Position numbers and translations under genes: made by a program
In this document: in pieces, positions 1,922 to 62,786 of the stretch
Position numbering within the stretch: the first letter of the stretch is position 1
Layout: the number at the start of each line of letters is the position of its first letter
Source: Sminthopsis crassicaudata
Taxonomy: Eukaryota
Direction of reading: 5' to 3'
Assembly (NCBI RefSeq): GCF_048593235.1
Contig: NC_133619.1
Location: 234,250,454 to 234,314,453 of the forward strand
DNA: 64,000 nucleotides
Notes under the pieces: generated by a model
The model's database searches: none
What the model was told of the DNA's origin: nothing
Seen by the model: only the letters and a program-made list of their open reading frames with translations

Positions 1922-2026
1922 GTCCATTCAACAAGAATACAGAGAAATAGAGTATCCCTGGCAGTATACCACCCAGTCACTTTTGCTAAAGGGTCATCCT
2001 TAGTAATTAGCAACTCTGACTGGCCT

Positions 2027-3178: not shown

Positions 3179-3505
3179 CTTGCCAGTGGTGCACTGGGTC
3201 TGCAGGTTCCTTCTGAGCAGCAAGGCAGCCTCCCTAAGCAATGACTCCTCTGCACTCTGTGTGGGTTAAGGTTTCAGTGACGCCCTCAGTGCCCGGGAGA
3301 AGACACTCTGTGCACTCTCAGTCACCCAGTCAGGAAGGTAGTTCAGGCTCATGCAAGCAAGGGAGACCTACCTGGAGGTTTTTTAATGAAACTCTGGTAT
3401 GGATGATCCCAAGCGTCTGATTCCTTCCTTTTCAGGTCTGGAGAGAGCTAGCTCCTTCCCTTCAGCTCTGGCAGCAAAAGATATGGGCACTGAGCTGTGT
3501 GAGCC

Positions 3506-3513
3506 TTTTTAAA
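3506..3513 (-). promoter_or_regulatory. TATA-like TTTAAAAA upstream of each gene (example for copy 2)
   Basis: GATTTAAAAAGG, ~330 nt upstream of the ATG and conserved across units; no TSS evidence. Confidence 0.25.
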
Positions 3514-20894: not shown

Positions 20895-22694
20895 CTTGCC
20901 AGTTGTGCACTGGGTCTGCAGGTTCCTTCTGAGCAGCAAGGCAGCCTCCCTAAGCAATGACTCCTCTGCACTCTGTGTGAGTTAAGGTTTCAGTGACTCC
21001 CTCAGTGCCCTGGAGAAGACACTCTGTGCACTCTCAGTCACCCAGTCAGGAAGGTAGTTCAGGCTCATGCAAGCAAGGGAGACCTACCTGGAGGTTTTTT
21101 AATGAAACTCTGTCTATAGATGATGCCAAGCCTCTGATTCCTTCCTTTTCAGGTCTGGAGAGAGCTAGCTCCTTCCCTTCAGCTCTGGCAGCAAAAGATA
21201 TGGGCACTGAGCTGTGTGAGCCTTTTTAAATCTCCTCCCCTGCTTAGCCATTCTCTTAACTCCACCCTCAAATAAGTGAGAACTCTTGTCTTTTGAGAGG
21301 ACTTCCACTCCCTGCTTCAGGGCTGAGTTCTCACCTTTCTTCTAATCCCACCTTTCAGAGTCAGCCTCTCTAGAGAAGGAAACTCCTTCCCTCCTTCTGA
21401 GTACATGGAAAGATCTCCTGATTGGGTCACTTAGCAGTGACATTCTCACCTGCAAGCCTCAAGATATCACCTTTTTGATGTACTGACATGGAAACATGGC
21501 AAAGAAAGACGCCCAGCCCCCACCCCAAACAAAAACTTTTTTTTTCCCCAAACTGCTTCCCACCCATGGCTCCTATGAAGAAAACATGTACCAACCTTTG
21601 CTTTCTCTCCCCCTTAGTTTCCACTTTGGCTCTCATTACATACTTATGATTCTATCACTGGATCAAGAAGTCTTAGCATTTTTAGTATATGTTTTTTAGA
21701 AGAACATTATTTCTGATTGCTATCTTTTTAAATGTTCATCTCAGAAAGAAGATTGTCTTCTTCCTTTTGGTTATGCCACAAAGGATTTGTGAACTGAGGC
21801 AGCTGTTACTTTTTTTTTTTAATTGTTTCACCTTTAAGTTCCTTTTATTGACTCCTCAAAAGGTGAGAACTCCCACTTTCTAAAATTCTTCCACTCTCTC
21901 CACTGGAGTTTGTCCTCTTAAAATATAATACATCAATATATATTTATTTTATTTCAATTAAAATAGACTTTAATCTGGACACCTGGTGACTGCATCTATC
22001 CTATTCTAGGTTGTATTCCAGGCTGGGATACCTCTGACAAGGGGCACCAAATGTCCTACAAGAGAAGGGTAGAAAAACAGAATGACACAATGGAAGTACC
22101 TTTGGCATAATATCTTGCTTCAAGTTCCTATTTGGTTGTGGACTAATTTATTGCAATCCTTCAAAACATCTTTATAGCTTTACCTATTACATTTTCTTAT
22201 TTCATGCCAGATCTTTGAGTCTGCTATGATCCTCTAGTAGTATTCTGACTCAAAACAATAGACATTCCATACCCAACTCCCAAGGCCTGCAAAGAAGAGA
22301 ACTTTTGTCCCTTTTCTTTCTTTATTTGTTTGCTTCCTTACTCCTTTGGTTGTTCATTGATTCATATAGTCTTTTAGCCTTCCAAGTGTTGTTCTCCCTC
22401 CCTTTCTACTAGAAATTTTTCCCTTCACTTTTGCTCTCCTCAGGCCTTGTCTCCTATTCTGCTACCCACCTCCCCATCCCAATTAGCTTCTGGAAAAGCA
22501 GCCACCAAAGGGGAAAAATGATCTTTTTACGTTAAGAATTCTTAAGAAGGAACACAGTATTTTCTTGGTTTAAATAATCACACTTTATTGTCCATTCAAC
22601 AGAAATACAGAGAAATAGAGTATCCCTGGCAGTGTTCCACCCAGTCACTTTTGCTAAAGGGTCATCCTTAGTAATTAGGAACTCTGACTGGCCT

Positions 22695-23846
22695 CTACTG
22701 TGCACTCTTAGGGCAAATGATGAGTGAACCAGGGGTGCTCTGGTCTTGGGGAAGGCAAGGAGAGAAATAAGGGCGAAGAGGGCCTTCCAAATCTATGTTT
22801 GGGTTACTGTAAACAATGGCTCTGTATGTGACATCATAAAATGCTATTTCTTGCCTTTCACAATCAAGAAAAATGCCCACTTTGTGCAGAGGTTGGCTCA
22901 ACTGAATGGTCTTTTCTGAAGTGTACAAGAAGAAACCATTTCCAGATGTGAATGCTGTGATGGCCAAGACATCTTCCCAACTGAATCTCCCTCCTGAATC
23001 ATTACAGACGCCCAAAGCCCACCCCGTCTTGTCTTCCACCTCTACTTCCCAGTAGTGGGTGCCTGAGATGAATTTCTGGGTTCCTAAAACCCCGAGAGCA
23101 GGATGAAATCTCTCTGTGTTGTCAGGCAGGTCTTGACGGGTGCTTCCATAGTGCACCCTCTTCAAATCTTCAGACAGGATGAGATGAGGATGGGCTGATT
23201 CAGGATCAAGAGTTATATCCCTGTGGAAACTCATGAGAAATTCTCTCATGCCTGTAATGGAGCAGATAGGCCAGGGAAGGAAAGGAAACTCTGGCCTTTG
23301 GAGTAGTTCTTCCTTTTTTTTCAAAGTGTCTGGTGCAGCCTGGATCATTTCCAAGGGCAGCATGTCCAAATTCTGCTCCACTTCTAACATCATTTGTTTC
23401 AGATTTTGTGTTTCTGGTAACACCTTCATCTCATGCTCTGCTAGTTTGAGCAGGTTGCTTGTGGATGCCTCACCAAAACTTTTTTCGTATATAAATTTTT
23501 CTTCCATTAAGAATAGTTGCAGTTGCCTATATTGAGAACTAGTTAACACTTTCAAAGTGCAGGAACTCTCAGTAAATTGTGCCTTTCTTCTTCTCAATGT
23601 GTCCAGTGCAGTTTGACACTTCTCTTTTTTCTTCTGTATGATCCTCCATATCTGCAGGAGCTTGTTCTTGCTCTTGTCAGCTGCTGTCTCCAAGGGAATG
23701 ACTTGGTGGTCCTTGAGTTCTGGGCCCGAGAAGCAAGAATCAAAGAGGGGTCTCTGGCCTTCCTCACAGAAGAATATCACTTGTTCTCCCTGTTGATCAC
23801 AGGTGCTCAGGTTCAAGTCTTTGTGCAGCAGGTGATTTTGGCTCAT
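22695..23846 (-). CDS. Copy 9: RING-less TRIM-like protein, 383 aa (A/X)
   Basis: Intact ORF. Confidence 0.88.
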   Translation of the reverse strand: MSQNHLLHKDLNLSTCDQQGEQVIFFCEEGQRPLFDSCFSGPELKDHQVIPLETAADKSKNKLLQIWRIIQKKKEKCQTALDTLRRRKAQFTESSCTLKVLTSSQYRQLQLFLMEEKFIYEKSFGEASTSNLLKLAEHEMKVLPETQNLKQMMLEVEQNLDMLPLEMIQAAPDTLKKKEELLQRPEFPFLPWPICSITGMREFLMSFHRDITLDPESAHPHLILSEDLKRVHYGSTRQDLPDNTERFHPALGVLGTQKFISGTHYWEVEVEDKTGWALGVCNDSGGRFSWEDVLAITAFTSGNGFFLYTSEKTIQLSQPLHKVGIFLDCERQEIAFYDVTYRAIVYSNPNIDLEGPLRPYFSPCLPQDQSTPGSLIICPKSAQ

Positions 23847-25638
23847 CTTGCCAGTGGTGCACTGGGTCTGCAGGTTCCTTCTGAGCAGCAAGGCAGCCTC
23901 CCTAAGCAATGACTCCTCTGCACTCTGTGTGGGTTAAGGTTTCAGTGACTCCCTCAGTGCCCGGGAGAAGACACTCTGTGCACTCTCAGTCAGGAAGGTA
24001 GTTCAGGCTCATGCAAGCAAGGGAGACCTACCTGGAGGTTTTTTAATGAAACTCTGGTATGGATGATCCCAAGCGTCTGATTCCTTCCTTTTCAGGTCTG
24101 GAGAGAGCTAGCTCCTTCCCTTCAGCTCTGGCAGCAAAAGATATGGGCACTGAGCTGTGTGAGCCTTTTTAAATCTCCTCCCCTGCTTAGCCATTCTCTT
24201 AACTCCACCCTCAAATAAGTGAGAACTCTTGTCTTTTGAGAGGACTTCCACTCCCTGCTTCAGGGCTGAGTTCTCACCTTTCTTCTAATCCCACCTTTCA
24301 GAGTCAGCCTCTCTAGAGAAGGAAACTCCTTCCCTCCTTCTGAGTACATGGAAAGATCTCCTGATTGAGTCACTTAGCAGTGACATTCTCACCTGCAAGC
24401 CTCAAGATATCACCTTTTTGATGTACTGACATGGAAACATGGCAAAGAAAGACGCCCAGCCCCCACTCCAAACAAAATCTTTTTTTTTTTCCCCAAACTG
24501 CTTCCTACCCATGGCTCCTATGAAGAAAACATGTACCAACCTTTGCTATCCCTCCCCCTTAGTTTCCACTTTGGCTCTCATTACATACTTATGATTCTAT
24601 CACTGGATCAAGATGTCTTAGCATTTTTAGTATATGCTTTTTAGAAGAACATTATTTCTGATTGCTATCTTTTTAAATGTTCATCTCAGAAAGAAGATTG
24701 TCTTCTTCCTTTTGGTTATGCCACAAAGGATTTGTGAACTGAGGCAGCTGTTACTTTTTTTTTTAATTGTTTCACCTTTAATTTCCTTTTATTGACTCCT
24801 CAAAAGGTGAGAACTCCCACTTTCTAAAATTCTTCCACTCTCTCCACTGGAGTTTGTCCTCTTAAAATATAATACATCAATATATATTTATTTTATTTCA
24901 ATGAAAATAGACTTTAATCTGGACACCTGGAGACTGCATCTATCCTATTCTAGGTTGTATTCCAGGCTGGGATACCTCTGACAAGGGGCACCAAATGTCC
25001 TACAAGAGAAGGGTAGAAAAACAGAATGACACAATGGAAGTACCTTTGGCATAATATCTTGCTTCAAGTTCCTATTTGGTTGTGGACTAATTTATTGCAA
25101 TCCTTCAAAACATCTTTATAGCTGTACCTATTACATTTTCTTATTTCATGCCAGATCTTTGAGTCTGCTATGATCCTCTAGTAGTATTCTGACTCAAAAC
25201 AATAGACATTCCATACCCAACTCCCAAGGCCTGCAAAGAAGAGAACTTTTGTCCCTTTTCTTTCTTTATTTGTTTGCTTCCTTACTCCTTTGGTTGTTCA
25301 TTGATTCATATAGTCTTTTAGCCTTCCAAGTGTTGTTCTCCCTCCCTTTCTACTAGAAATTTTTCCCTTCACTTTTGCTCTCCTCAGGCCTTGTCTCCTA
25401 TTCTGCTACCCACCTCCCCATCCCAATTAGCTTCTGGAAAAGCAGCCACCAAAGGGGAAAAATGATCTTTTTACGTTAAGAATTCTTAAGAAGGAACACA
25501 GTATTTTCTTGGTTTAAATAATCACACTTTATTGTCCATTCAACAGAAATACAGAGAAATAGAGTATCCCTGGCAGTGTTCCACCCAGTCACTTTTGCTA
25601 AAGGGTCATCCTTAGTAATTAGGAACTCTGACTGGCCT

Positions 25639-26791
25639 CTACTGTGCACTCTTAGGGCAAATGATGAGTGAACCAGGGGTGCTCTGGTCTTGGAGAAGGC
25701 AAGGAGAGAAATAAGGGCGAAGAGGCCCTTCCAAATCTATGTTTGGGTTACTGTAAACAATGGCTCTGTATGTGACATCATAAAATGCTATTTCTTGCCT
25801 TTCACAATCAAGAAAAATGCCCACTTTGTGCAGAGGTTGGCTCAACTGAATGGTCTTTTCTGAAGTGTACAAGAAGAAACCATTTCCAGATGTGAATGCT
25901 GTGATGGCCAAGACATCTTCCCAACTGAATCTCCCTCCTGAATCATTACAGACGCCCAAAGCCCACCCCGTCTTGTCTTCCAACTCTACTTCCCAGTAGT
26001 GGGTGCCTGAGATGAATTTCTGGGTTCCTAAAACCCCGAGAGCAGGATGAAATCTCTCTGTGTTGTCAGGCAGGTCTTGACGGGTGCTTCCATAGTGCAC
26101 CCTCTTCAAATCTTCAGACAGGATGAGATGAGGATGGGCTGATTCAGGATCAAGAGTTATATCCCTGTGGAAACTCATGAGAAATTCTCTCATGCCTGTA
26201 ATGGAGCAGATAGGCCAGGGAAGGAAAGGAAACTCTGGCCTTTGGAGTAGTTCTTCCTTTTTTTTCAAAGTGTCTGGTGCAGCCTGGATCATTTCCAAGG
26301 GCAGCATGTCCAAATTCTGCTCCACTTCTAACATCATTTGTTTCAGATTTTGTGTTTCTGGTAACACCTTCATCTCATGCTCTGCTAGTTTGAGCAGGTT
26401 GCTTGTGGATGCCTCACCAAAACTTTTTTTCGTATATAAATTTTTCTTCCATTAAGAATAGTTGCAGTTGCCTATATTGAGAACTAGTTAACACTTTCAA
26501 AGTGCAGGAACTCTCAGTAAATTGTGCCTTTCTTCTTCTCAATGTGTCCAGTGCAGTTTGACACTTCTCTTTTTTCTTCTGTATGATCCTCCATATCTGC
26601 AGGAGCTTGTTCTTGCTCTTGTCAGCTGCTGTCTCCAAGGGAATGACTTGGTGGTCCTTGAGTTCTGGGCCCGAGAAGCAAGAATCAAAGAGGGGTCTCT
26701 GGCCTTCCTCACAGAAGAATATCACTTGTTCTCCCTGTTGATCACAGGTGCTCAGGTTCAAGTCTTTGTGCAGCAGGTGATTTTGGCTCAT
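25639..26791 (-). pseudogene. Copy 10: frameshifted TRIM-like copy
   Basis: T7 at 26424-26430 where other copies have T6, splitting the ORF into the track's 146-aa and 244-aa pieces. Could be a homopolymer sequencing error. Confidence 0.6.
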
Positions 26792-27581
26792 CTTGCCAGT
26801 GGTGCACTGGGTCTGCAGGTTCCTTCTGAGCAGCAAGGCAGCCTCCCTAAGCAATGACTCCTCTGCACTCTGTGTGGGTTAAGGTTTCAGTGACTCCCTC
26901 AGTGCCCTGGAGAAGACACTCTGTGCACTCTCAGTCACCCAGTCAGGAAGGTAGTTCAGGCTCATGCAAGCAAGGGAGACCTACCTGGAGGTTTTTTAAA
27001 TGAAACTCTGGTATGGATGATCCCAAGCGTCTGATTCCTTCCTTTTCAGGTCTGGAGAGAGCTAGCTCCTTCCCTTCAGCTCTGGCAGCAAAAGATATGG
27101 GCACTGAGCTGTGTGAGCCTTTTTAAATCTCCTCCCCTGCTTAGCCATTCTCTTAACTCCACCCTCAAAAAGGTGAGAACTCTTGTCTTTTGAGAGGACT
27201 TCCACTCCCTGCTTCAGGGCTGAGTTCTCACCTTTCTTCTAATCCCACCCTTCAGAGTCAGCCTCTCTAGAGAAGGAAACTCCTAACCTCCTTCTGAGTA
27301 CATGGAAAGATCTCCTGATTGGGTCACTTAGCAGTGACATTCTCACCTGCAAGCCTCAAGATATCACCTTTTTGATGTGCTGACATGGAAACATGGCAAA
27401 GAAAGACGCCCAGCCCCCACCCCAAACAAAATCTTTTTTTTTTCCCCAAACTGCTTCCCACCCATGGCTCCTATGAAGAAAACATGTACCAACCTTTGCT
27501 ATCCCTCCCCCTTAGTTTCCACTTTGGCTCTCATTACATACTTATGATTCTATCACTGGATCAAGATGTCTTAGCATTTTT

Positions 27582-27596
27582 AGTATATGCTTTTTA
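27582..27596 (+). repeat. L1 target-site duplication, left copy (agtatatgcttttt[a])
   Basis: Identical to 34339-34353. Uninterrupted units have a single copy within ...tttttagtatatgctttttagaagaac. The site reads TTTTT/AG, consistent with L1 endonuclease preference. Confidence 0.95.
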
Positions 27597-27638
27597 TTTT
27601 TTTTTTTTTTTTTTTATTATATATATATATATATATAT
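27597..27638 (-). repeat. L1 poly(A) tail (T19 on plus) with adjacent (AT)10 microsatellite
   Basis: T run 27597-27615, (AT)n 27619-27638; AATAAA on the minus strand at 27613-27618. Confidence 0.9.
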
Positions 27639-27958
27639 TTTATAATATTATCCCTTGTATTCATTTTTCCAATTTACCCCCCCTCCCTTTATTCCCTCCC
27701 CCCGACGACAGGCAATACCATACATTTTACATGTGTTACAATATAGTCTAGGTACAATACATGTGTGCGAATATCACTTTCTTGTTGCACAATAAACATT
27801 AGAATCCGAAGGTACATGCAACCTGGGCAGACAGATATTAGTGCTAACAATTTTCATTCCCCTCCCAGTGTTTCTTCTCTGGGTGCAGCTACCTCTGTCC
27901 ATCATTGATCAACTGGAAGTGAGTTGGATCTTCTTTATGTTGAAGATTTCCACTTCCA

Positions 27959-30900
27959 TCAGAATACATCCTCATACAGCATTGTTGTTGAAGTGTACAG
28001 TGATCTTCTGGTTCTGCTCATTTCACTCAGCATCAGTTGATTTAAGTCTCTCCAGGCCTCTCTATATTCCTCCTGTTGGTCATTTCTTACCGAGCAATAA
28101 TATTCCATAACCTTCATATACCACAATTTACCCAACCATTCTCCAACTGATGGACATCCATTCATCCTCCAGTTTCTAGCTACAACAAAAAGAGCTGCCA
28201 CAAACATTTTGGCACATATATGTCTCTTTCCGCTCTTTAGTATTTCTTTGGGATATAATCCCAGTAGTAGCGCTGCTGGGTCAAAGGGTATGCACAGTTT
28301 GATAACTTTTTGGGCATAATTCCAGATTGCTCTCCAGAATGGCTGGATTCTTTCACAACTCCACCAGCAATGTATTAGTGTCCCAGTTTTCCCACATCCC
28401 CTCCAACATTTGTCATTATTTGTTCCTGTCATCTTAGCCAATCTGACAGGTGTGTAGTGGTATCTCAGAGTGGTCTTAATTTGCATTTCTCTGATCAGTA
28501 GTGATTTGGAACACTCTTTCATGTGAGTGGATATAGTTTCAATTTCTTCCTCTGAGAATTGTCTGTTCATATCCTTTGACCATTTATCAATTGGAGAATG
28601 GTTCGGTTTCTTATAAATTTGGGTCAGTTCTCTATATATTTTGGAAATGAGACCTTTGTCAGAACCTTTGTTTTTAAAAATATTTTCCCAATTTGTTACT
28701 TCCCTTCTAATCTTGTTTGCATTAGTATTATTTGTACAGAAACTTTTTAGTTTGATGTAATCAAAATCTTCTATTTTGTGATCAATAATGATCTCTAGTT
28801 CTCCTCTGGTCATAAATTCCTTCCTCCTCCACAAGTCTGAGAGGTAGATTATCCTCTGTTCCTCTAATCTATTTATTATCTCCCTCTTTATGCCTAAATC
28901 ATGGACCCATTTTGATCTTATCTTGGTATATGGTGTTAAGTGTGGATCCATATCTAATTTCTGCCATACTAATTTCCAGTTTTCCCAACAGTTTTTTCCG
29001 AATAATGAATTTTTATCCCTAATGTTGGAATCTTTGGGTTTGTCAAAGATTAGATTGCTATAGATGTATCCTTTTTTGTCCTTTGTATCTAATCTGTTCC
29101 ACTGATCTACCGGTCTATTTCGTAGCCAATACCAAATGGTTTTGGTGACTGCTGCTATATAATATAGCTTTAGATCAGGTACACTTAGACCACCTTCCTC
29201 TGAGTTTTTTTTCATTAGTTCCCTTGCAATTCTTGACCTTTTATTCTTCCATATGAATTTTGTTGTTATTTTTTCTAGGTCATTAAAATAGTTTCTTGGG
29301 AGTCTGATTGGTATAGCACTAAATAAATAGATTAGTTTGGGGAGTATTGTCATCTTTATTATATTCGCTCGGCCTATCCAAGAGCACTGAATGTCTTTCC
29401 AATTATTTAAATCTGACTTTATTTTTGTGGCAAGTGTTTTGTAATTTTTCTCATATAATTCCTGACTTTTCTTTGGTAGATGGATTCCCAAATATTTTAT
29501 ACTCTCAACATTTGTTTGGAATGGAATTTCTCTTTGTATCTCTTGCTGTTGCATTTTGTTAGTGATATATAAAAATGCCGAGGATTTATGTGGATTTATT
29601 TTGTATCCTGCCACTTTGCTGAAATTTTGAATTATTTCTAGTAGCTTTTTAGCAGAGTCTTTGGGGTTCTCTAAGTATACCATCATGTCATCTGCAAAAA
29701 GTGATAGTTTGATTTCCTCATTTCCTACTCTAATTCCTTGAATCTCTTTCTCGGCTCTTATTGCCGAGGCTAGCGTTTCTAGTACTATATTGAATAGTAA
29801 TGGTGATAGTGGGCAACCTTGTTTCACTCCTGATCTTACTGGGAAAGGTTGCAGTTTATTTCTATTGCATATTATGCTTACTGACGGTCTTAAATATATA
29901 CTCCTGATTATTCTAAGGAATAATCCATTTATTCCTATACTCTCAAGAGTTTTTAGTAGGAATGGATGTTGGATTTTGTCAAATGCTTTTTCTGCATCTA
30001 TTGAGATGATCATATGGTTCTTATTAATTTGATTATTAATATGGTCAATTATATTAATAGTTTTCCTAATATTAAACCAGCCCTGCATTCCTGGAATAAA
30101 TCCTACTTGATCATAGTGTATTATCTTGGAGATGATTTTCTGAAGTCTTTTTGCTAATATCTTATTTAAGATTTTAGCATCAATATTCATTAAGGAGATT
30201 GGTCTATAATTTTCTTTCTCAGTTTTCGATCTACCAGGTTTAGGTATCAGTACCATGTCTGTGTCATAAAAGGAGTTTGGTAGGACTCCTTCATCCCCTA
30301 TTTTTTCAAATAATTTATATAACATTGGGGCTAATTGTTCTTTAAATGTTTGGTAGAATTCACATGTGAATCCATCTGGCCCTGGGGATTTTTTCCTGGG
30401 GAGTTGATTAATAGCTTGTTCTATTTCTTTTTCTGAAATGGGACTATTTAAGCAATTTATCTCCTCCTCTGTTAATCTAGGGAGCCTATATTTTTGGAGA
30501 AAGTCATCCATTTCACTTAAGTTATCAAATTTATTGGCATAAAGTTGGGCAAAGTAACTCCTTATTATTTCTCTAATTTCCTCTTCATTGGTGGAAAGAT
30601 CCCCCTTTTCATTTGTAAGACTATCAATTTGATTTTCCTCTTTCTTTTTTTTGATCAAATTTACCAAAGGTTTATCTATTTTATTGGCTTTTTCATAAAA
30701 CCAACTCTTGGTTTTATTTATTAATTCAATAGTTTTTTTACTTTCAATTTTATTGATTTCTCCTTTTAATTTTTGTATTTCGAGTTTAATTTTTGGTTGG
30801 GGGTTTATAATTTGGTCTTTTTCTAGCCTTTTAAGTTGTAAGCCCAATTCGTTAATCTTCTCTTTCTCAATTTTCTTCAAATAAGCCTCTAAAGATATAA

Positions 30901-31792
30901 AATTTCCCCTTATTACTGCTTTAGCTGCATCCCAAAGATTTTGATATGATGTCTCATCATTATCATTATCTTGGGTGAAATTGTTAATTGTTTCTATAAT
31001 TTGTTCTTTCACCCAGTCATTCTTTAAGATGAGATTATTCAGTTTCCAATTACTTTTTGGTCTATTTACCCCTAACTTTTTACTGAATGTAGCTTTTATT
31101 GCATTGTGATCTGAGCAGAAGGCATTTATTATTTCTGCCTTCCTACATTTAATTTTGAGATCTTTATGTCCTAATATATGGTCAATTTTTGTATAGGATC
31201 CATGAACTGCTGAGAAGAAAGTATATTCCTTCCTATTGCCATTCAGTTTTCTCCAAAGGTCTATCATACCTAGTTTTTCTAATGTTCTATTTACTTTTTT
31301 AATTTCTTTCTTGTTTGTTTTGTGGTTTGATTTGTCTAAATCTGAGAGTGCAAGGTTGAGATCTCCCACTATTATAGTTTTACTGTCTATTTCTTCTTGC
31401 AGTTCTCTTAACTTTTCCTTTAGAAAGTTAGATGCTATACCACTTGGTGCATATATGTTTAGTATTGATATGGCTTCATTATTTATGCTACCTTTCAGCA
31501 GGATATAGTTTCCTTCCTTATCTTTTTTAACGAGATCTACTTCTGCTTTTGCTTGATCTGAGATAAGGATAGCTACCCCTGCTTTTTTGGCTTTACCTGA
31601 AGCATAATAAGCTCTGTTCCAACCTTTTACCTTTACTCTGTATGTATCTCCCTGCTTTAAGTGTGTTTCCTGTAGACAACATATTGTAGGGTTCTGCTTT
31701 TTGATCCAATCTGCTATCCGTCTCCGTTTGATGGGATCGTTCATCCCATTTACATTTACAGTTAAAATTACTAATTCTGTATTTCCTGCCAT
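27959..31792 (-). CDS. ORF2: L1 ORF2p: APE endonuclease, reverse transcriptase, C-terminal cysteine-rich domain
   Basis: EN motifs NVNG, CLQETH, GDLN, KIDH, SDH; RT motifs [18 protein letters not shown]; C-terminal [18 protein letters not shown] (CX3CX7HX4C). No stops or frameshifts. Confidence 0.97.
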
Positions 31793-32314
31793 CGTATTAT
31801 CCCCAGATTATACTTTTTTCCCTTGACCCCCCTGATCCCCCTCCCCGATATTTAATTTACAGACCCCCCTTGTGACGCGCAACCCTCCCTCTTTTTTTTT
31901 TTTTTTTTTTTTTAGGATCCCTCCCCCCTCCCTCCAAGACCCTTCACTTATTCTCCTTTTCCTTTCCCCTTTTCCTCTCCCCCCTTTTAATGAGGTGAGA
32001 GAAAATTCTCTGAAAAACAAATATGTTAATTATTTACTCTTTGAGCCTCTTCTGATGAGAGTAAGATTCACACAATGATTCTCCCCCTCACTAAGTTCCC
32101 TCAGATATGGTGTATTTTCTATGTCTCTTCCTGGGATGTAGTTTCCCTCTTTTTATCACTCCTTCCCCTTTTTCTGAACCGACCTCCTTCCCTTTACCAC
32201 ACCCCCCTTTTTTTCTTTTATATCAGTAAAATCAAATTATCCTTGAGTATTTTTTATATACCCACAACAAAGTTACAGTTCTCAAGGGTTCTGTGTACCT
32301 TTTTCTGTTTCTCT

Positions 32315-33475
32315 TCAGTCTTGTGGATGTAGATCAAATTTTTTGTTTAAGTCTGGTTTTTTTCTTAGAAACATATAGAATTCCTCTGTTTCATTGAATG
32401 ACCATCTTCTTCCATGGAAAAAGATGCTAAACTTAGCTGGGTAGTTCATTCTTGGTTGCAGTCCTTGATCTTTTGCCTTTCGGAATATCAGGTTCCAGGC
32501 CCTTCTATCTTTTAATGTGGAGGCAGCCAGATCTTGGGTGACCCTTATTGTGGCACCTTGGTATTTAAATTGTTTTTTTCTAGCTGCTTGCAGGATTTTC
32601 TCCTTTGTGTGGTAATTCTGCAGCTTAGCCACAATATTCCGTGGTGTTCTTTTTTTAGGGTCTATTTCAGAAGGAGTTCGATGAATTCTTTCCACATCTA
32701 CTTTCCCTTCTGTTTCTATTATCTCTGGACAGTTCTCTTTGATAATTTCCTGTAAAATAGAATCTAGGCTCTTTTTCTGGTCATAGTTTTCGGGAAGTCC
32801 AATGATCCGCAGATTATCTCTCCTAGATCTATTTTCCAGGTCTATAGATTTTCCCAGTAAGTATTTGACGTTGTTCTCCAGCTTCTCATTTTTTTTGTTT
32901 TGTTTGACTGATTCTTGGGTTCTCTGTGAATCATTCATTTCTATTTGTTCCATCCTGACTTTTAAGGAGTTATTTTCTTCTTTCACAGTTTTTAGTTCTT
33001 TTTGTAAATGCCCAATTTCGTTTTTAAATGAATTATTTTGCTCTATTGAGTTTTTTTCCATTTCCCTAATTTTTTTTTTTTGAGAATTATTTTCTTTTTC
33101 CAATTCAGAAATTCTATTTTCTTGAGACTTTTTTATCTTTTCCAATTCAGATATCCTACTTTCCTGTGTTTTTTTAACCTTTTCTAATTCACTAATTTTG
33201 TTTCCCTGCATCTCCTGTGAATTCTTTATTTTTTCCAACTCCAATTTCAGGACATTGTTATTTTCTATCATAACTTCTCTTTCCTTTCCCCATTTTTCTT
33301 CGATCTCCCTCAATTTCTTAAGAGCTTCTTCTAGGAGAGAGTTATGTGATGGGGGGCAGGAATCGTTCCCCTTTAGGTTGTTATCTGATTCTCTGCTGTC
33401 AACTTCCTCGGGGTTGGACACCCGTTCTTTCTCTGTATAGAAGGAATCTATGGTTTTTCTAGCTTTTTTGCTCAT
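32315..33475 (-). CDS. ORF1: L1 ORF1p: coiled coil, RRM, CTD
   Basis: DLENRSRRDNLRIIGLPE, ERIHR, PRNIVAK, EKILQAAR, YPAK motifs typical of mammalian L1 ORF1p. Confidence 0.95.
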   Translation of the reverse strand: MSKKARKTIDSFYTEKERVSNPEEVDSRESDNNLKGNDSCPPSHNSLLEEALKKLREIEEKWGKEREVMIENNNVLKLELEKIKNSQEMQGNKISELEKVKKTQESRISELEKIKKSQENRISELEKENNSQKKKIREMEKNSIEQNNSFKNEIGHLQKELKTVKEENNSLKVRMEQIEMNDSQRTQESVKQNKKNEKLENNVKYLLGKSIDLENRSRRDNLRIIGLPENYDQKKSLDSILQEIIKENCPEIIETEGKVDVERIHRTPSEIDPKKRTPRNIVAKLQNYHTKEKILQAARKKQFKYQGATIRVTQDLAASTLKDRRAWNLIFRKAKDQGLQPRMNYPAKFSIFFHGRRWSFNETEEFYMFLRKKPDLNKKFDLHPQD

Positions 33476-34338
33476 ACTTAAAAAAAAATCTTTTGGGGTC
33501 TGTCTCTGGGGTAGGAAATTATTTACTTCTTTACCAGCTTCCTCCCAGATGGGATGGATGCAGCGGCTCCTGAGCCCGAGCTAAGAGAGAGCTCTGGGAG
33601 AGAGTTCCCCACCCTCTCCCTGGGAGTGCCTCAGAGGTGATTAGCACTGCTGTGCTTCGAGGGCGTAGAATAGTGAAGACTGCAGGAAGCCCAGGCTATG
33701 TGTCCGGGTGGGGAGTGGGTGTCTGCAGCAGGTGACGTGAGAAGCCCCTGCGCTCAAACTGGAAGTGTCTGCCAGAAACCGCGGTCCCTAGTTCAAAGGT
33801 TCCGCTTCTCTGGGACTTCCTGGAGCTGAGTTCCACTCCCTCCAGCTAAGCTAGGCAGTGTGTGTTGCCTTGGGCCGGATCCACCCACTTGTCAGTCTCT
33901 TAACTATTCTCAGGAGGTAGCTGAGGCCACACCCCCTGGTGCCTGAGTCACCCCCAGGGTCAGGGGAAAATCCAATCTGAGTTTTAAAATATTTTGGCTT
34001 TCTCTTCTGAACTGCTAAATAATTAGCAGAGAAGAGCTAACAGCCTGTGCCAGATTCCTTTACCTCAGTGGCTTCTCTGATCCCAGAGCCCCTCCCAGCG
34101 CAATGGGCGCAGTGTGCCCCTACCCCACCGTCTGTGCTGGTCTCTTATTCCTCCCCTGAGAACTGACCTTTCCTGTTGAAACTCCAGATTCTCTTCAGCT
34201 GGTAAGTCGTGCTTCCAGTCCTTGTGGTATCTATCAGTCCTGAGCTAATTTTGAGACTTAATTTATCTAATTGGTTGTGAGGGAGTGAGGACGTTCACTG
34301 AGTCGTGTGTTTCCTCTCCGCCATCTTGGCTCCGCCTC
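33476..34338 (-). promoter_or_regulatory. L1 5'UTR internal promoter with YY1-like site
   Basis: CAAGATGGCG at the extreme 5' end (plus 34319-34328), where mammalian L1s carry a YY1 site; richer in GC and CpG than the flanks by eye. Confidence 0.75.
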
Positions 34339-34353
34339 AGTATATGCTTTTTA
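34339..34353 (+). repeat. L1 target-site duplication, right copy
   Basis: agtatatgcttttta directly after the L1 5' end; normal spacer sequence resumes. Confidence 0.95.
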
Positions 34354-35348
34354 GAAGAACATTATTTCTGATTGCTATCTTTTTAAATGTTCATCTCAGA
34401 AAGAAGATTGTCTTCTTCCTTTTGGTTATGCCACAAAGGATTTGAGAACTGAGGCAGCTGTTACTTTTTTTTTTTAATTGTTTCACCTTTTAAGTGCCTT
34501 TTATTGACTCCTCAAAAGGTGAGAACTCCCACTTTCTAAAGTTCTTCCACTCTCTCCACTGGAGTTTGTCCTCTTAAAATATAATACATCAATATATATT
34601 TATTTTATTTCAATTAAAATAGACTTTAATCTGGACACCTGGGGACTGCATCTATCCTATTCTAGGTTGTATTCCAGGCTGGGATACCTCTGACAAGGGG
34701 CACCAAATGTCCTACAAGAGAAGGGTAGAAAAACAGAATGACACAATGGAAGTACCTTTGGCATAATATCTTGCTTCAAGTTCCTTACCAGTTGAGGACT
34801 AATTTATTTCAGTCCTTCAAAACATCTTTATAGCTGTACCTATTACATTTTCTTATTTCATGCCAGATCTTTGAGTCTGCTATGATCCTCAAGTAGTATT
34901 CTGACTCAAAACAATAGACATTCCATACCCATCTCCCTAGGCCTTCAAAGAAGAGAACTTTTCTCCCTTTTCTTTCTTTATTTGTTTGCTTCCTTACTCC
35001 TTTGGTTGTTCAATGATTCCTACAGTCTTTTAGCCTTCCAAGTGTTGTTCTCCCTCCCTTTCTACTAGGAATTTTCCCCTTCACTTTTGCTCTCCTCAGG
35101 CCTTGTCTCCTATTCTGTTACCCACCTCCCCATCCCAATTAGCTTCTGGAAAAGCAGCCACCAGTGGGGAAAAATGATCTTTTCACTTTAAGAAACCTTA
35201 ACAAAGCACACAGTATTTTCTTGGTTTAAATAATCACACTTTATTGTCCATTCAACAAGAATACAGAGAAATAGAGTATCCCTGGCAGTATACCACCCAG
35301 TCACTTTTGCTAAAGGGTCATCCTTAGTAATTAGGAACTGACTGGCCT

Positions 35349-36674
35349 CTACTGTGCACTCTTAGGGCAAATGATGAGTGAACCAGGGGTACTCTGGTCT
35401 TGGGGAAGGCAAGGAGAGAAATAAGGGCGAAGAGGCCCTTCCAAATCTATGTTTGGGTTACTGTAAACAATGGCTCTGTATGTGACATCATAAAATGCTA
35501 TTTCTTGCCTTTCACAATCAAGAAAAATGCCCACTTTGTGCAGAGGCTGGCTCAACTGAATGGTCTTTTCTGAAGTGTACAAGAAGAAACCATTTCCAGA
35601 TGTGAATGCTGTGATGGCCAAGACATCTTCCCAACTGAATCTCCCTCCTGAATCATTACAGACGCCCAAAGCCCACCCCGTCTTGTCTTCCACCTCTACT
35701 TCCCAGTAGTGGGTTCCTGAGATGAATTTCTGGGTTCCTAAAACCCCGAGAGCAGGATGAAATCTCTCTGTGTTGTCAGGCAGGTCTTGACGGGTGCTTC
35801 CATAGTGCACCCTCTTCAAATCTTCAGACAGGATGAGATGAGGATGGGCTGATTCAGGATCAAGGGTTATATCCCTGTGGAAACTCATGAGAAATTCTCT
35901 CATGCCTGTAATGGAGCAGATAGGCCAGGGAAGGAAAGGAAACTCTGGCCTTTGGAGTAGTTCTTCCTTTTTTTTCAAAGTGTCTGGTGCCGCCTGGATC
36001 ATTTCCAAGGGCAGCATGTCCAAATTCTGCTCCACTTGTAACATCATTTGTTTCAGCTTTTGTATTTCTGGTAACACCTTCATCTCATGCTCTGCTAGTT
36101 TGAGCAGGTTGCTTATGGATGCCTCAACAAAACTTTTTTCATATATAGATTTTTCTTCCATTAAGAATTGTTGCAGTTTCCCATATTCACAAACAGCTGC
36201 CACTTTCAAAGTGGAGGAACGCTCTATGAATTGTGCCTCTCTTCTTCTCAATGTGTCCAGTGCAGTTTGACACTTCTCTTTTTTCTTCTGTATGATCCTC
36301 CATATCTGCAGGAGCTTGTTCTTGCTCTTGTCAGCTGCTGTCTCCAAGGGAAGGACTTGGTGGTCCTTGAGTTCTGGGCCCGAGAAGCAAGAATCAAAGA
36401 GGGGTCTCTGGCCTTCCTCACAGAAGAATATCACTTGTTCTCCCTGTTGATCACAGGTGCTCAGGCTCACGTCTTTGTGCAGCAGGTGATTTTGGCTCAT
36501 CTTGTCAGTGGTGCACTGGGTCTGCAGGTTCCTGCTGAGCAGCAAGGCAGCCTCCCTAAGCAATGACTCCTCTGCACTTTGTGTCGGTTTAGGTTTCAGT
36601 GACTCCCTCAGTGCCCTGGAGAAGACACTCTGTGCACTCTCAGTCACCCAGTCAGGAAGGTAGTTCAGGCTCAT
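35349..36674 (-). CDS. Copy 11: N-terminally extended TRIM-like protein, 441 aa (B/X)
   Basis: ATG at 36674 (MSLNYLPDW). Codon 29 is AAA (plus ttt 36588-36590) where most copies have TAA. Internal ATG at 36500. Confidence 0.82.
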   Translation of the reverse strand: MSLNYLPDWVTESAQSVFSRALRESLKPKPTQSAEESLLREAALLLSRNLQTQCTTDKMSQNHLLHKDVSLSTCDQQGEQVIFFCEEGQRPLFDSCFSGPELKDHQVLPLETAADKSKNKLLQIWRIIQKKKEKCQTALDTLRRREAQFIERSSTLKVAAVCEYGKLQQFLMEEKSIYEKSFVEASISNLLKLAEHEMKVLPEIQKLKQMMLQVEQNLDMLPLEMIQAAPDTLKKKEELLQRPEFPFLPWPICSITGMREFLMSFHRDITLDPESAHPHLILSEDLKRVHYGSTRQDLPDNTERFHPALGVLGTQKFISGTHYWEVEVEDKTGWALGVCNDSGGRFSWEDVLAITAFTSGNGFFLYTSEKTIQLSQPLHKVGIFLDCERQEIAFYDVTYRAIVYSNPNIDLEGPLRPYFSPCLPQDQSTPGSLIICPKSAQ

Positions 36675-38297
36675 GCAAGCAAGGGAGACCTACCTGGAGG
36701 TTTTTTAATGAAACTCTGGTATGGATGATCTCAAGCCTCTGATTCCTTCCTTTTCAGGTCTGGAGAGAGCTAGCTCCTTCCCTTCAGCTCTGGCAGCAAA
36801 AATATGGGCACTGAGCTGTGTGAGCCTTTTTAAATCTCCTCCCCTGCTTAGCCATTCTCTTAACTCCACCCTCAAATAAGTGAGAACTCTTGTCTTTTGA
36901 GAGGACTTCCACTCCCTGCTTCAGGGCTGAGTTCTCACCTTTCTTCTAATCCCACCTTTCAGAGTCAGCCTCTCTAGAGAAGGAAACTCCTTCCCTCCTT
37001 CTGAGTACATGGAAAGATCTCCTGATTGGGTCACTTAGCAGTGACATTCTCACCTGCAAGCCTCAAGATATCACCTTTTTGATGTACTGACATGGAAACA
37101 TGGCAAAGAAAGACGCCCAGCCCCCACCCCAAACAAAAACTTTTTTTTTCCCCAAACTGCTTCCCACCCATGGCTCCTATGAAGAAAACATGTACCAACC
37201 TTTGCTTTCTCTCCCCCTTAGTTTCCACTTTGGCTCTCATTACATACTTATGATTCTATCACTGGATCAAGAAGTCTTAGCATTTTTAGTATATGTTTTT
37301 TAGAAGAACATTATTTCTGATTGCTATCTTTTTAAATGTTCATCTCAGAAAGAAGATTGTCTTCTTCCTTTTGGTTATGCCACAAAGGATTTGTGAACTG
37401 AGGCAGCTGTTACTTTTTTTTTTAATTGTTTCACCTTTAAGTTCCTTTTATTGACTCCTCAAAAGGTGAGAACTCCCACTTTCTAAAATTCTTCCACTCT
37501 CTCCACTGGAGTTTGTCCTCTTAAAATATAATACATCAATATATATTTATTTTATTTCAATTAAAATAGACTTTAATCTGGACACCTGGTGACTGCATCT
37601 ATCCTATTCTAGGTTGTATTCCAGGCTGGGATACCTCTGACAAGGGGCACCAAATGTCCTACAAGAGAAGGGTAGAAAAACAGAATGACACAATGGAAGT
37701 ACCTTTGGCATAATATCTTGCTTCAAGTTCCTATTTGGTTGTGGACTAATTTATTGCAATCCTTCAAAACATCTTTATAGCTGTACCTATTACATTTTCT
37801 TATTTCATGCCAGATCTTTGAGTCTGCTATGATCCTCTAGTAGTATTCTGACTCAAAACAATAGACATTCCATACCCAACTCCCAAGGCCTGCAAAGAAG
37901 AGAACTTTTCTCCCTTTTCTTTCTTTATTTGTTTGCTTCCTTACTCCTTTGGTTGTTCATTGATTCATATAGTCTTTTAGCCTTCCAAGTGTTGTTCTCC
38001 CTCCCTTTCTACTAGAAATTTTTCCCTTCACTTTTGCTCTCCTCAGGCCTTGTCTCCTATTCTGCTACCCACCTCCCCATCCCAATTAGCTTCTGGAAAA
38101 GCAGCCACCAAAGGGGAAAAATGATCTTTTTACGTTAAGAATTCTTAAGAAGGAACACAGTATTTTCTTGGTTTAAATAATCACACTTTATTGTCCATTC
38201 AACAGAAATACAGAGAAATAGAGTATCCCTGGCAGTGTTCCACCCAGTCACTTTTGCTAAAGGGTCATCCTTAGTAATTAGGAACTCTGACTGGCCT

Positions 38298-39449
38298 CTA
38301 CTGTGCACTCTTAGGGCAAATGATGAGTGAACCAGGGGTGCTCTGGTCTTGGAGAAGGCAAGGAGAGAAATAAGGGCGAAGAGGCCCTTCCAAATCTATG
38401 TTTGGGTTACTGTAAACAATGGCTCTGTATGTGACATCATAAAATGCTATTTCTTGCCTTTCACAATCAAGAAAAATGCCCAATTTGTGCAGAGGCTGGC
38501 TCAACTGAATGGTCTTTTCTGAAGTGTACAAGAAGAAACCATTTCCAGATGTAAATGCTGTGATGGCCAAGACATCTTCCCAACTGAATCTCCCTCCTGA
38601 ATCATTACAGACGCCCAAAGCCCACCCCGTCTGGTCTTCCAACTCTACTTCCCAGTAGTGGGTGCCTGAGATGAATTTCTGGGTTCCTAAAACCCCGAGA
38701 ACAGGATGAAATCTCTCTGTGTTGTCAGGCAGGTCTTGACGGGTGCTTCCATAGTGCACCCTCTTCAAATCTTCAGACAGGATGAGATGAGGATGGGCTG
38801 ATTCAGGATCAAGGGTTATATCCCTGTGGAAACTCATGAGAAATTCTCCCATGCCTGTAATGGAGCAGATAGGCCAGGGAAGGAAAGGAAACTCTGGCCT
38901 TTGGAGTAGTTCTTCCTTTTTTTTCAAAGTGTCTGGTGCCGCCTGGATCATTTCCAAGGGCAGCATGTCCAAATTCTGCTCCACTTGTAACATCATTTGT
39001 TTCAGCTTTTGTATTTCTGGTAACACCTTCATCTCATGCTCTGCTAGTTTGAGCAGGTTGCTTGTGGATGCCTCAACAAAACTTTTTTCATATATAGATT
39101 TTTCTTCCATTAAGAATTGTTGCAGTTTCCCATATTCACAAACAGCTGCCACTTTCAAAGTGGAGGAACGCTCTATGAATTGTGCCTCTCTTCTTCTCAA
39201 TGTGTCCAGTGCAGTTTGACACTTCTCTTTTTTCTTCTGTATGATCCTCCATATCTGCAGGAGCTTGTTCTTGCTCTTGTCAGCTGCTGTCTCCAAGGGA
39301 AGGACTTTGTGGTCCTTGAGTTCTGGGCCCGAGAAGCAAGAATCAAAGAGGGGTCTCTGGCCTTCCTCACAGAAGAATATCACTTGTTCTCCCTGTTGAT
39401 CACAGGTGCTCAGGCTCACGTCTTTGTGCAGCAGGTGGTTTTGGCTCAT
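38298..39449 (-). CDS. Copy 12: RING-less TRIM-like protein, 383 aa (CC B, SPRY mostly Y)
   Basis: Intact ORF; upstream TAA present. Confidence 0.88.
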   Translation of the reverse strand: MSQNHLLHKDVSLSTCDQQGEQVIFFCEEGQRPLFDSCFSGPELKDHKVLPLETAADKSKNKLLQIWRIIQKKKEKCQTALDTLRRREAQFIERSSTLKVAAVCEYGKLQQFLMEEKSIYEKSFVEASTSNLLKLAEHEMKVLPEIQKLKQMMLQVEQNLDMLPLEMIQAAPDTLKKKEELLQRPEFPFLPWPICSITGMGEFLMSFHRDITLDPESAHPHLILSEDLKRVHYGSTRQDLPDNTERFHPVLGVLGTQKFISGTHYWEVELEDQTGWALGVCNDSGGRFSWEDVLAITAFTSGNGFFLYTSEKTIQLSQPLHKLGIFLDCERQEIAFYDVTYRAIVYSNPNIDLEGPLRPYFSPCLLQDQSTPGSLIICPKSAQ

Positions 39450-41248
39450 CTTGCCAGTTGTGCACTGGGTCTGCAGGTTCCTTCTGAGCAGCAAGGCAGC
39501 CTCCCTAAGCAATGACTCCTCTGCACTCTGTGTGAGTTAAGGTTTCAGTGACTCCCTCAGTGCCCTGGAGAAGACACTCTGTGCACTCTCAGTCACCCAG
39601 TCAGGAAGGTAGTTCAGGCTCATGCAAGCAAGGGAGACCTACCTGGAGGTTTTTTAATGAAACTCTGGTATGGATGATCCCAAGCGTCTGATTCCTTCCT
39701 TTTCAGGTCTGGAGAGAGCTAGCTCCTTCCCTTCAGCTCTGGCAGCAAAAGATATGGGCACTGAGCTGTGTGAGCCTTTTTAAATCTCCTCCCCTGCTTA
39801 GCCATTCTCTTAACTCCACCCTCAAAAAGGTGAGAACTCTTGTCTTTTGAGAGGACTTCCACTCCCTGCTTCAGGGCTGAGTTCTCACCTTTCTTCTAAT
39901 CCCACCCTTCAGAGTCAGCCTCTCTAGAGAAGGAAACTCCTAACCTCCTTCTGAGTACATGGAAAGATCTCCTGATTGGGTCACTTAGCAGTGACATTCT
40001 CACCTGCAAGCCTCAAGATATCACCTTTTTGATGTGCTGACATGGAAACATGGCAAAGAAAGACGCCCAGCCCCCACCCCAAACAAAATCTTTTTTTTTT
40101 CCCCAAACTGCTTCCCACCCATGGCTCCTATGAAGAAAACATGTACCAACCTTTGCTATCCCTCCCCCTTAGTTTCCACTTTGGCTCTCATTACATACTT
40201 ATGATTCTATCACTGGATCAAGATGTCTTAGCATTTTTAGTATATGCTTTTTAGAAGAACATTATTTCTGATTGCTATCTTTTTAAATGTTCATCTCAGA
40301 AAGAAGATTGTCTTCTTCCTTTTGGTTATGCCACAAAGGATTTGAGAACTGAGGCAGCTGTTACTTTTTTTTTTTTAATTGTTTCACCTTTAAGTGCCTT
40401 TTATTGACTCCTCAAAAGGTGAGAACTCCCACTTTCTAAAGTTCTTCCACTCTCTCCACTGGAGTTTGTCCTCTTAAAATATAATACATCAATATATATT
40501 TATTTTATTTCGATTAAAATAGACTTTAATCTGGACACCTGGGGACTGCATCTATCCTATTCTAGGTTGTATTCCAGGCTGGGATACCTCTGACAAGGGG
40601 CACCAAATGTCCTACAAGAGAAGGGTAGAAAAACAGAATGACACAATGGAAGTACCTTTGGCATAATATCTTGCTTCAAGTTCCTTACCAGTTGAGGACT
40701 AATTTATTTCAGTCCTTCAAAACATCTTTATAGCTGTACCTATTACATTTTCTTATTTCATGCCAGATCTTTGAGTCTGCTATGATCCTCAAGTAGTATT
40801 CTGACTCAAAACAATAGACTTTCCATACCCATCTCCCTAGGCCTTCAAAGAAGAGAACTTTTCTCCCTTTTCTTTCTTTATTTGTTTTCTTCCTTACTCC
40901 TTTGGTTGTTCAATGATTCCTACAGTCTTTTAGCCTTCCAAGTGTTGTTCTCCCTCCCTTTCTACTAGGAATTTTCCCCTTCACTTTTGCTCTCCTCAGG
41001 CCTTGTCTCCTATTCTGTTACCCACCTCCCCATCCCAATTAGCTTCTGGAAAAGCAGCCACCAGTGGGGAAAAATGATCTTTTCACTTTAAGAAACCTTA
41101 ACAAAGCACACAGTATTTTCTTGGTTTAAATAATCACACTTTATTGTCCATTCAACAAGAATACAGAGAAATAGAGTATCCCTGGCAGTATACCACCCAG
41201 TCACTTTTGCTAAAGGGTCATCCTTAGTAATTAGGAACTGACTGGCCT

Positions 41249-58949: not shown

Positions 58950-59172
58950 TATTCAATTTCTGGATCAAGATGTCTTAACATTTTTAGAATATGTTTTTTA
59001 GAAGGGCCTTATTTCTGATTCCTATCTTTTTAGATATTCATCTCAGAAAGAAGATTGTCTTCTTTCTTTTCGTTCTGCTACATGGGATTTGGAACTTGGG
59101 CTGATATAGTTTTTTTTCCTTTATTTGACCCTATAAATTCCTTTTTTTTACCGCTCAAATGGTGAGAACTCC
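58950..59172. repeat. Diverged relic of the array spacer after an ORF-deleting junction
   Basis: Aligns by eye to 57939-58157 (ctggatcaagatgtctt ... ggtgagaactcc), with identity falling distally. Confidence 0.8.
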
Positions 59173-61430: not shown

Positions 61431-61449
61431 CCTCTTGGGGGAAATATTG

Positions 61450-62780: not shown

Positions 62781-62786
62781 TAAGTC

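What the first reader, a model, noticed from the sequence alone, without database searches (positions are those of the whole stretch)
27582..34353. Young, potentially retrotransposition-competent L1 inserted in a single array unit
Both ORFs are uninterrupted, the catalytic motifs are present (QETH, GDLN, SDH, FADD, CCHC), the 5' end has a YY1-like site, the TSD is perfect and the A-tail is retained. It occurs in only one unit, although neighbouring units were recently duplicated, so it postdates or escaped the latest turnover and may be polymorphic. If the species is a marsupial with few known active L1s, this is a candidate source element (inference).
Basis: partly seen in the sequence, partly recalled or inferred. 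Interest (0 to 1): 0.7.

Follow-up and report, generated by a model that had tools for sequence, protein, structure and literature searches.

The report
Young intact L1 in TRIML array
A complete LINE-1 jumping gene with both reading frames open sits between two copies of a tandemly repeated TRIML1-like gene in what is likely a fat-tailed dunnart; it is one of an estimated two hundred or so intact copies and so ordinary as a locus, although that family suggests LINE-1 is likely still active in a species where it was reported as nearly dead.

Summary
Observation confirmed. A full-length L1 (- strand, 27597-34338) has an open ORF1 (386 aa) and ORF2 (1277 aa), all catalytic motifs, a YY1-like 5' end, an A19 tail and a 14-15 bp target-site duplication. 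It lies in one junction of a ~2.95 kb array of RING-less TRIML1-like genes; the host is likely the fat-tailed dunnart.

The 'rare source element' reading fails. Its 37-bp 5' end occurs 624 times in the genome, and 14 of 46 copies taken in genomic order have both ORFs intact (about 190 genome-wide, 95% interval 111-286). This copy is of median age and has one private ORF2p change, F226C, beside the catalytic SDH. That position is F in 49 of 49 other intact copies. No daughters or 3' transductions were found.

Single occupancy says little about age, because the youngest unit duplications do not include this junction. Polymorphism and activity are untested.

The wider point is modest. A large young L1 family contradicts a 2016 PCR report of near-inactivation in dunnarts, whose primers mismatch this family; devil L1 activity is already published. 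The scan earlier noted another TRIML array in this genome, not this L1.

The parts
27582..27596 (.). Target-site duplication at the element's 3' end (14-15 bp; base 27596 may belong to the tail)
   Evidence: Exact repeat of 34339-34353; single copy at 7 empty sites in the window
27597..27958 (-). L1 3' UTR ending in a (TA)n tract (about 27619-27638) and an A19 tail (27597-27615)
   Evidence: Sequence; the same (TA)n plus A tail is seen across the family
27959..31792 (-). L1 ORF2, 1277 aa: APE-type endonuclease, reverse transcriptase, C-terminal CCHC
31115..31117 (-). ORF2 codon 226, Cys in this copy only (family Phe; human Leu227), directly before catalytic S-D-H
   Evidence: F in 49 of 49 other intact ORF2s fetched; F or L in 93 of 93 scorable of 98 homologues, mostly dog; alignment to human
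31793..32314 (-). Inter-ORF spacer, 522 bp
   Evidence: ORF limits
32315..33475 (-). L1 ORF1, 386 aa: coiled-coil-like N-terminal part plus RRM and CTD Pfam matches; no amino-acid difference from the family majority
   Evidence: the coiled coil is judged from the sequence, not computed
33476..34338 (-). L1 5' UTR, 863 bp, 53% GC, CpG observed/expected 0.32 (no strong CpG island); YY1-like CAAGATGGCGG at 34318-34328
   Evidence: YY1 label recalled
34339..34353 (.). Target-site duplication at the element's 5' end
25639..26791 (-). TRIML1-like gene of unit U15, 0.8 kb downstream of the L1 tail in the same orientation; frameshifted by a 7-T run (6 in all other units) at 26424-26430
   Evidence: Only broken frame in 23 whole units; may be an assembly homopolymer error
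35349..36674 (-). TRIML1-like gene of unit U16 (441 aa; no RING, degenerate B-box, PRY/SPRY); first AATAAA about 35240-35245, roughly 0.9 kb before the L1 5' end
1..59172 (-). Part of a tandem array of ~2.95 kb units, each with one single-coding-exon TRIML1-like gene; the array starts about 20 kb left of the window

Best explanation
This is a full-length L1 retrotransposon with both reading frames open, sitting between 14-15 bp target-site duplications in the spacer between two TRIML1-like genes, and it is a typical member of a large young L1 family in what is likely a fat-tailed dunnart. Steps. (1) Inferred from known L1 biology and the anatomy: another family member was transcribed, its ORF2p nicked the + strand at TTTTT/AG, primed reverse transcription on the A tail and copied the RNA to its 5' end, duplicating 14-15 bp. 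(2) Shown: the same empty site exists in the other units, and the nearest empty twin junction (U17|U18) is identical for 589 bp on the left and differs at 13 sites in 2 kb. (3) Inferred: the insertion hit one junction once and has not yet been copied or lost by unequal exchange. (4) Shown: it carries 6 substitutions seen in no other of 91 fetched copies, one of them F226C. (5) Inferred: it is a possibly weakened, probably not hot element rather than a master source; the family as a whole is likely still active.
For: TSD, tail, ORFs and motifs. The 5' UTR search gave 3778 first-look candidates, and all 40 scored were 99-100% identical. 624 exact 37-bp 5' ends. Of the 39 nearest copies, 35 are full length and 17 have 386/1277-aa ORFs, plus one with 387/1277. 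Census in genomic order: 14 of 46 strict (15 loose), 13 of the 14 with all six motifs. This copy has 22 substitutions from the column majority, equal to the median of 77 full-length rows (a set enriched for its nearest copies); the census median is 25.5. The F226C 31-mer has 3 exact hits, and the other two are broken 89-91% copies. The downstream 391 bp matched only TRIML arrays on C3 in the 40 scored of 95 candidates. Host: paralogues on a contig of the same length as C3 are labelled Sminthopsis crassicaudata.
Against: No activity assay, so F226C may be harmless; Cys is a small hydrophobic residue and all catalytic residues are kept. Daughters would mostly be 5'-truncated and need not reach codon 226. 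A 3' UTR variant of this copy is shared by 142 exact hits. The 12 of them fetched did not place with it in the tree where full length (4 of 12), and the truncated ones are too short to place. The census covers only the first 266 Mb of one contig and includes duplicates of one insertion (L091-L094). A 2016 PCR screen found 2 of 100 intact ORF2 fragments in this species (PMC5010896).
Confidence: 0.85

Rival explanations
1. This copy is an active or hot source element; F226C is tolerated and its daughters are too few, truncated or absent from this one assembly.
For: Both ORFs open, all catalytic residues kept, ORF1p identical to the family majority and ORF2p one residue off. Clean A19 tail and perfect TSD. 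13 of 42 full-length census copies are as close to the majority or closer, so it lies in the younger third. Devil L1s are proven active, with 35 source elements in DFT2 (10.1101/2022.05.27.493404).
Against: About 190 peers; no close daughter; no transduction in the 40 scored of 95; private change at an F/L-only position next to the catalytic His.
Confidence: 0.1
2. The insertion is real and has consequences for the array: sitting about 0.5 kb upstream of a TATA-like motif of unit U15, it silenced that copy, which then took a frameshift, and it shields the junction from unequal exchange.
For: U15 is the only one of 23 whole units with a broken frame and is the unit directly downstream of the L1; the chance for that one unit is 1 in 23, or 2 in 23 for either neighbour. 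L1s in other tandem units were copied along with them (L049-L051, L091-L094), while this one was not.
Against: U15's two distinguishing indels are both +1 T in 6-T runs within 600 bp, the pattern of a local homopolymer error. The junction's distance to its nearest twin (13 differences in 2 kb) lies within the range of the 21 junctions (0-57), so no barrier is seen. The TATA-like motif is a pattern match only.
Confidence: 0.08
3. The L1 was placed in the array by misassembly.
For: Both partners are repeats, and homopolymer oddities lie next to it.
Against: A perfect duplication of the unit's own 15-mer at an endonuclease-type site, on both ends, is a signature of insertion that an assembler would not make. 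The element has 6 private substitutions and matches no other fetched locus.
Confidence: 0.03

Closest known systems
Human L1HS / mammalian LINE-1 (ORF2p, PDB 8sxt and 1vyb)
   Same: Two-ORF layout, EN-RT-CCHC ORF2p aligned over 3-1265 at 1583 bits. The residues listed as catalytic in 10.1101/721357 (passages: E43, D145, D205, H230, D702) map to E42, D144, D204, H229, D701. 14-15 bp TSD, A tail, CAAGATGG 5' motif.
   Different: ORF1p is 386 aa; the spacer is 522 bp; the 3' end carries a (TA)n tract before the A tail; the 5' UTR has CpG observed/expected 0.32; Cys stands where human has Leu227.
Tasmanian devil L1 (L1-1_SH; source elements active in DFT2)
   Same: Nearest named ORF2p relative (P0121, 83% over residues 1-260). 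The devil has 1,948 full-length L1s and 35 sources shown by 3' transduction (10.1101/2022.05.27.493404, passages). Devil spacer 509 nt, 3' UTR 415 nt (PMC4408412, passages).
   Different: A dunnart-lineage family; 5' UTR 863 bp against 1,158 nt for the devil consensus; activity here is not shown and no transduction from this copy was found.
Opossum L1-1_MD
   Same: 63-65% identity over the endonuclease region; about 500 copies with both ORFs intact reported (PMC4408412, passages).
   Different: A more distant lineage; the estimate here is about 190 intact copies.
Marsupial TRIML1-like genes (host array); eutherian TRIML2 as a RING-less parallel
   Same: Top named hits are 'TRIML1' proteins of dunnart (74%), antechinus and devil (65-67%); PRY and SPRY domains.
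   Different: No RING, and several B-box Cys/His positions are replaced; 24 near-identical tandem copies. PMC6993854 (passages) treated multiple marsupial copies as possible assembly artefacts and RING loss as eutherian-specific.

Membership tests
LINE-1 (L1 clade non-LTR retrotransposon) | ORF1 with L1 RNA-binding domains | tested here: met
   Transposase_22 above its cut-off (54.8 vs 22.4 bits) and Tnp_22_dsRBD (30 vs 22.2)
LINE-1 (L1 clade non-LTR retrotransposon) | ORF2 with N-terminal APE endonuclease, RT and C-terminal CCHC | tested here: met
LINE-1 (L1 clade non-LTR retrotransposon) | No LTRs; 3' A tail; variable-length TSD at a T-rich endonuclease site | tested here: met
   A19 tail, 14-15 bp TSD, TTTTT/AG site, no self-repeat of the ends
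Full-length intact L1 of the youngest dunnart family | Reaches the family 5' end; both ORFs of family length; under 1% from its peers | tested here: met
   99.1-99.5% to the full-length nearest copies; 0.33% from the column majority
Retrotransposition-competent L1 | Catalytic residues kept | tested here: met
   E42, D144, D204, H229, D701 present
Retrotransposition-competent L1 | No damaging change at conserved positions | tested here: inconclusive
   One private change, F226C, at a position that is F in 49 of 49 intact copies and F/L in 93 of 93 scorable homologues; effect unknown; the per-residue table of 10.1101/721357 is in a closed supplement
Retrotransposition-competent L1 | Activity in a cell assay; transcription from the 5' UTR | not testable with these tools
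   No assay possible
L1 source (master) element | Daughter copies with its private variants or 3' transductions of its flank | tested here: not met
   None found in one assembly: (40 of 95 candidates scored); short transductions and other individuals not covered
Polymorphic L1 insertion | Filled and empty alleles among individuals | tested here: inconclusive
   The empty site is shared with other units, so short contigs cannot tell alleles apart
TRIM/RBCC E3 ligase (host gene) | N-terminal RING domain | tested here: not met
   No RING or B-box Pfam match; starts after the RING of possum, koala and opossum relatives; an upstream coding exon was not sought beyond the unit

The most novel reading that the evidence does not exclude
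In a marsupial whose L1 was published as nearly extinct, a still-active family of about two hundred intact L1s is reshaping a germline or immune gene array. This polymorphic insertion landed just upstream of one TRIML1-like copy, silenced it and started its decay: the death step of birth-and-death evolution caught in progress.
Probability: 0.08. Interest if true: 0.55.

Novelty: new member of a known kind. Interest (0 to 1): 0.27.

Why it matters
As a locus it matters little: young intact L1s are common in this genome. The family count matters somewhat. PMC5010896 concluded that L1 was finally inactivated in each dasyurid it tested and found 2 of 100 intact ORF2 fragments in the fat-tailed dunnart. 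This genome instead holds an estimated 110-290 intact copies, with independent insertions as close as 10 substitutions in 6.7 kb. The paper's primers mismatch the family at 2 and 3 sites (34 of 39 copies), which could explain the miss (inference). The dunnart is used as a laboratory marsupial (search listing), so a live L1 family would bear on germline stability and supply insertion markers. The devil precedent makes this expected rather than surprising.

Tried and rejected
Junction in public runs: contigs of 7 coded runs (X1, X4, X5, X7, X8, X10, X11; 5 samples) were laid on the 5' junction and no listed piece bridged it. Contigs drop rare branches, and unbroken empty-site contigs in X1, X7 and X10 ran across sites that vary among units, so this says nothing on polymorphism or assembly.

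Expression: no RNA holder listed; no evidence either way.

Barrier to homogenisation: not seen.

The 3' UTR variant first scored as private proved to be shared by 142 places and was dropped as a marker.

The CCHC pattern was mistyped and found nothing; it was corrected. The codon count was faulty and was redone (59 amino-acid-changing and 25 silent-only variable codons in 22 units; no selection test made). The bacterial promoter scan does not apply. A rare or unique element was rejected.

Literature searches for a published count of intact dunnart L1s listed none; one search returned no paper; the library lacks most subscription papers. PMC13408496 passages held nothing on intact L1s. Loci L077-L081 (paralogous arrays) were fetched but not analysed. 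No structure prediction was run.
Full report
1. Observation. The 15-mer AGTATATGCTTTTTA stands at 27582-27596 and 34339-34353, and once at 7 empty sites in other units of the window. Between the two copies, on the - strand, lie an 863-bp 5' UTR starting GAGGCGGAGCCAAGATGGCGG, ORF1 (386 aa), a 522-bp spacer, ORF2 (1277 aa), a 3' UTR, a (TA)n tract and an A19 tail. Pfam finds the L1 ORF1 domains, an APE-type endonuclease and RVT_1. ORF2p aligns end to end with human ORF2p. QETH, GDLN, IDH, SDH, FADD and CCHC are present. Reading the TSD as 14 bp puts the nick at TTTTT/AG, close to the L1 endonuclease consensus (recalled: TTTT/AA).

2. Host and surroundings. G000 has 3.24 Gb in 8 contigs and the window lies on C3. 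Paralogues of the array protein on a contig of C3's length are labelled Sminthopsis crassicaudata, and the next hits are antechinus and devil; the host is therefore likely the fat-tailed dunnart. The array has 24 gene copies at 98-100% over about 78 kb, and I aligned 23 whole units of ~2.95 kb. Each encodes a 383- or 441-aa TRIML1-like protein with PRY/SPRY, no RING and a degenerate B-box. The L1 is intergenic and in the genes' orientation: about 0.9 kb past the first AATAAA of U16 and 0.8 kb before the ATG of U15.

3. Is it rare? No. The 5' UTR drew 3778 first-look candidates, and all 40 scored were 99-100% identical. Of the 39 nearest copies, 35 are full length and 17 have ORFs of 386 and 1277 aa, one more 387 and 1277. 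The exact 37-bp 5' end occurs 624 times. To avoid choosing by similarity I took the first 46 of those in genomic order on C1. 41 align as one full-length piece; 14 have both ORFs at family length (15 on a looser rule), and 13 of the 14 keep all six motifs. That extrapolates to about 190 intact copies (95% interval 111-286). Caveats: one region of one contig, two of the 14 are duplicates of one insertion, and variants of the 37-mer are not counted. ORF1 indels cluster at an 11-A run (30 events among 76 copies), by slippage or by assembly error.

4. Age and quality of this copy. Against 91 other copies it has 22 substitutions from the column majority (0.33%), 6 of them private (0.09%). That equals the median of the 77 full-length rows, which are enriched for its nearest copies; the census median is 25.5, and 13 of 42 census copies are as close or closer. 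Its nearest neighbour is 25 substitutions away, rank 49 of 77, while the closest pair of independent insertions differs at 10. With recalled mammalian rates of 1-4 x 10^-9 per site per year this spans roughly 0.2-3 million years (inference; no dunnart rate was retrieved). ORF1p equals the family majority. ORF2p differs at one residue, F226C, directly before S227-D228-H229 and aligned to human L227. The position is F in 49 of 49 other intact ORF2s fetched, and F (88) or L (5) in the 93 scorable of 98 homologues, most of them dog. Its effect is unknown; the human scanning-mutagenesis table (10.1101/721357, passages seen) is in a closed supplement.

5. Is it a source? Nothing shows it. The 31-mer over codon 226 has 3 exact hits, and the other two are broken copies 89-91% identical. 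The 391 bp downstream of the tail matched only TRIML arrays on C3 among the 40 scored of 95 candidates. A 3' UTR variant is shared by 142 places; the 4 full-length ones among 12 fetched fall elsewhere in the tree. Short truncated daughters and other individuals are not covered.

6. Array turnover. Units are mosaics, 0-110 substitutions apart. The youngest duplications are U04-U06 (0-3), U10/U13 (3) and U21-U23 (2-4), 8 of 23 units, and none spans the L1 junction. The nearest empty twin is U17|U18: identical for 589 bp on the left and 13 differences in 2 kb, within the 0-57 range of the 21 junctions compared. So the insertion likely came after that exchange, and single occupancy is unremarkable. 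Elsewhere L1s were copied along with tandem units (L049-L051 on C6; L091-L094 on C1). U15, directly downstream, is the only frameshifted unit of 23. Both of its distinguishing indels are +1 T in 6-T runs, so assembly error is at least as likely as decay.

7. Mechanism. Shown: the anatomy, the empty sites, the family size and the private change. Inferred from established L1 biology: target-primed reverse transcription by ORF2p of another family member at a TTTTT/AG site, running to the 5' end. Inferred: the copy has since sat in one junction and may be weakened. Untested: transcription, activity, polymorphism, effect on U15.

8. Literature. PMC4408412 (passages) found no intact L1 ORFs in the short-read devil genome and about 500 intact L1s in opossum. 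PMC5010896 (parts 1-2 of 4 read) found 2 of 100 intact ORF2 fragments in the fat-tailed dunnart, inferred independent final inactivation in each species, and warned about assembly quality. Its primers mismatch this family at 2 and 3 sites, none in the last six 3' bases (34 of 39 copies), which may have favoured older copies (inference). 10.1101/2022.05.27.493404 (passages) reports 1,948 full-length devil L1s and 35 functional source elements in DFT2. PMC5203782 (passages) flags draft-assembly bias in extinction calls. PMC6993854 (passages) covers TRIML1 and TRIML2. Searches listed no count of intact dunnart L1s; the library is incomplete, and assembly-paper supplements that I did not see may hold one. 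The scan's notes hold another TRIML array in this genome (e1-9016934, unchecked) and nothing near this window.

9. Verdict. A real, young, structurally intact L1: a new member of a known kind and ordinary as a locus. It is one of about two hundred, with no sign of being a source and one possibly damaging change. The by-product, a large young L1 family in a species reported as L1-depleted, is worth a line but is expected after the devil result. Interest 0.27.

Noticed in passing
window 1-59172 and G000:C3:234.230-234.310 Mb: 24-copy tandem array of RING-less TRIML1-like genes with a degenerate B-box; 22 of 23 whole units are open, with 19 distinct proteins and 59 amino-acid-changing against 25 silent-only variable codons. 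Related arrays lie at C3:164-167 Mb. A possible marsupial parallel to eutherian TRIML2; arguably more interesting than the L1.
   Followed up: partly
window 26424-26430: Unit U15 alone has a +1 T frameshift in its gene, plus a second +1 T in a 6-T run about 575 bp upstream; real decay or a local homopolymer error.
   Followed up: partly
window 35349-36674, 41249-42574, 44199-45524: Three units right of the L1 have a 441-aa frame with a 58-residue N-terminal extension; the others start at the downstream ATG. The extension overlaps a stretch bounded by splice-donor-like and acceptor-like motifs.
   Followed up: no
window 3968-21683: A three-unit higher-order repeat (U08-U10 copied as U11-U13; 15, 11 and 3 differences) inside the array.
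   Followed up: partly
L049-L051 (G000:C6:197.4-198.3 Mb) and L091-L094 (G000:C1:91.24-91.34 Mb): Young full-length L1s multiplied by segmental or tandem duplication, with shared TSD and flanks; the C1 set appears by eye to be inserted in an older L1 endonuclease region, and two of its four copies keep both ORFs.
   Followed up: partly
G000:C1:307204026-307212708: Three L1 5' ends spaced about 4.32 kb apart in the same orientation, suggesting a tandem repeat that contains an L1 5' end.
   Followed up: no
window about 33075-33085 (ORF1 of the family): An 11-A run in ORF1 is the family's main indel hot spot (30 events among 76 copies) and likely explains why ORF1 is broken as often as the three times longer ORF2 (27 of 46 intact each).
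   Followed up: partly
window 59218-63886: Older, rearranged L1 fragments (76-82% to the young element) abut the right end of the array.
   Followed up: no
L074 (about 5.6-4.9 kb left of the window start): A ~690-bp partial unit sits between units U04 and U05, which are otherwise identical in substitutions.
   Followed up: no
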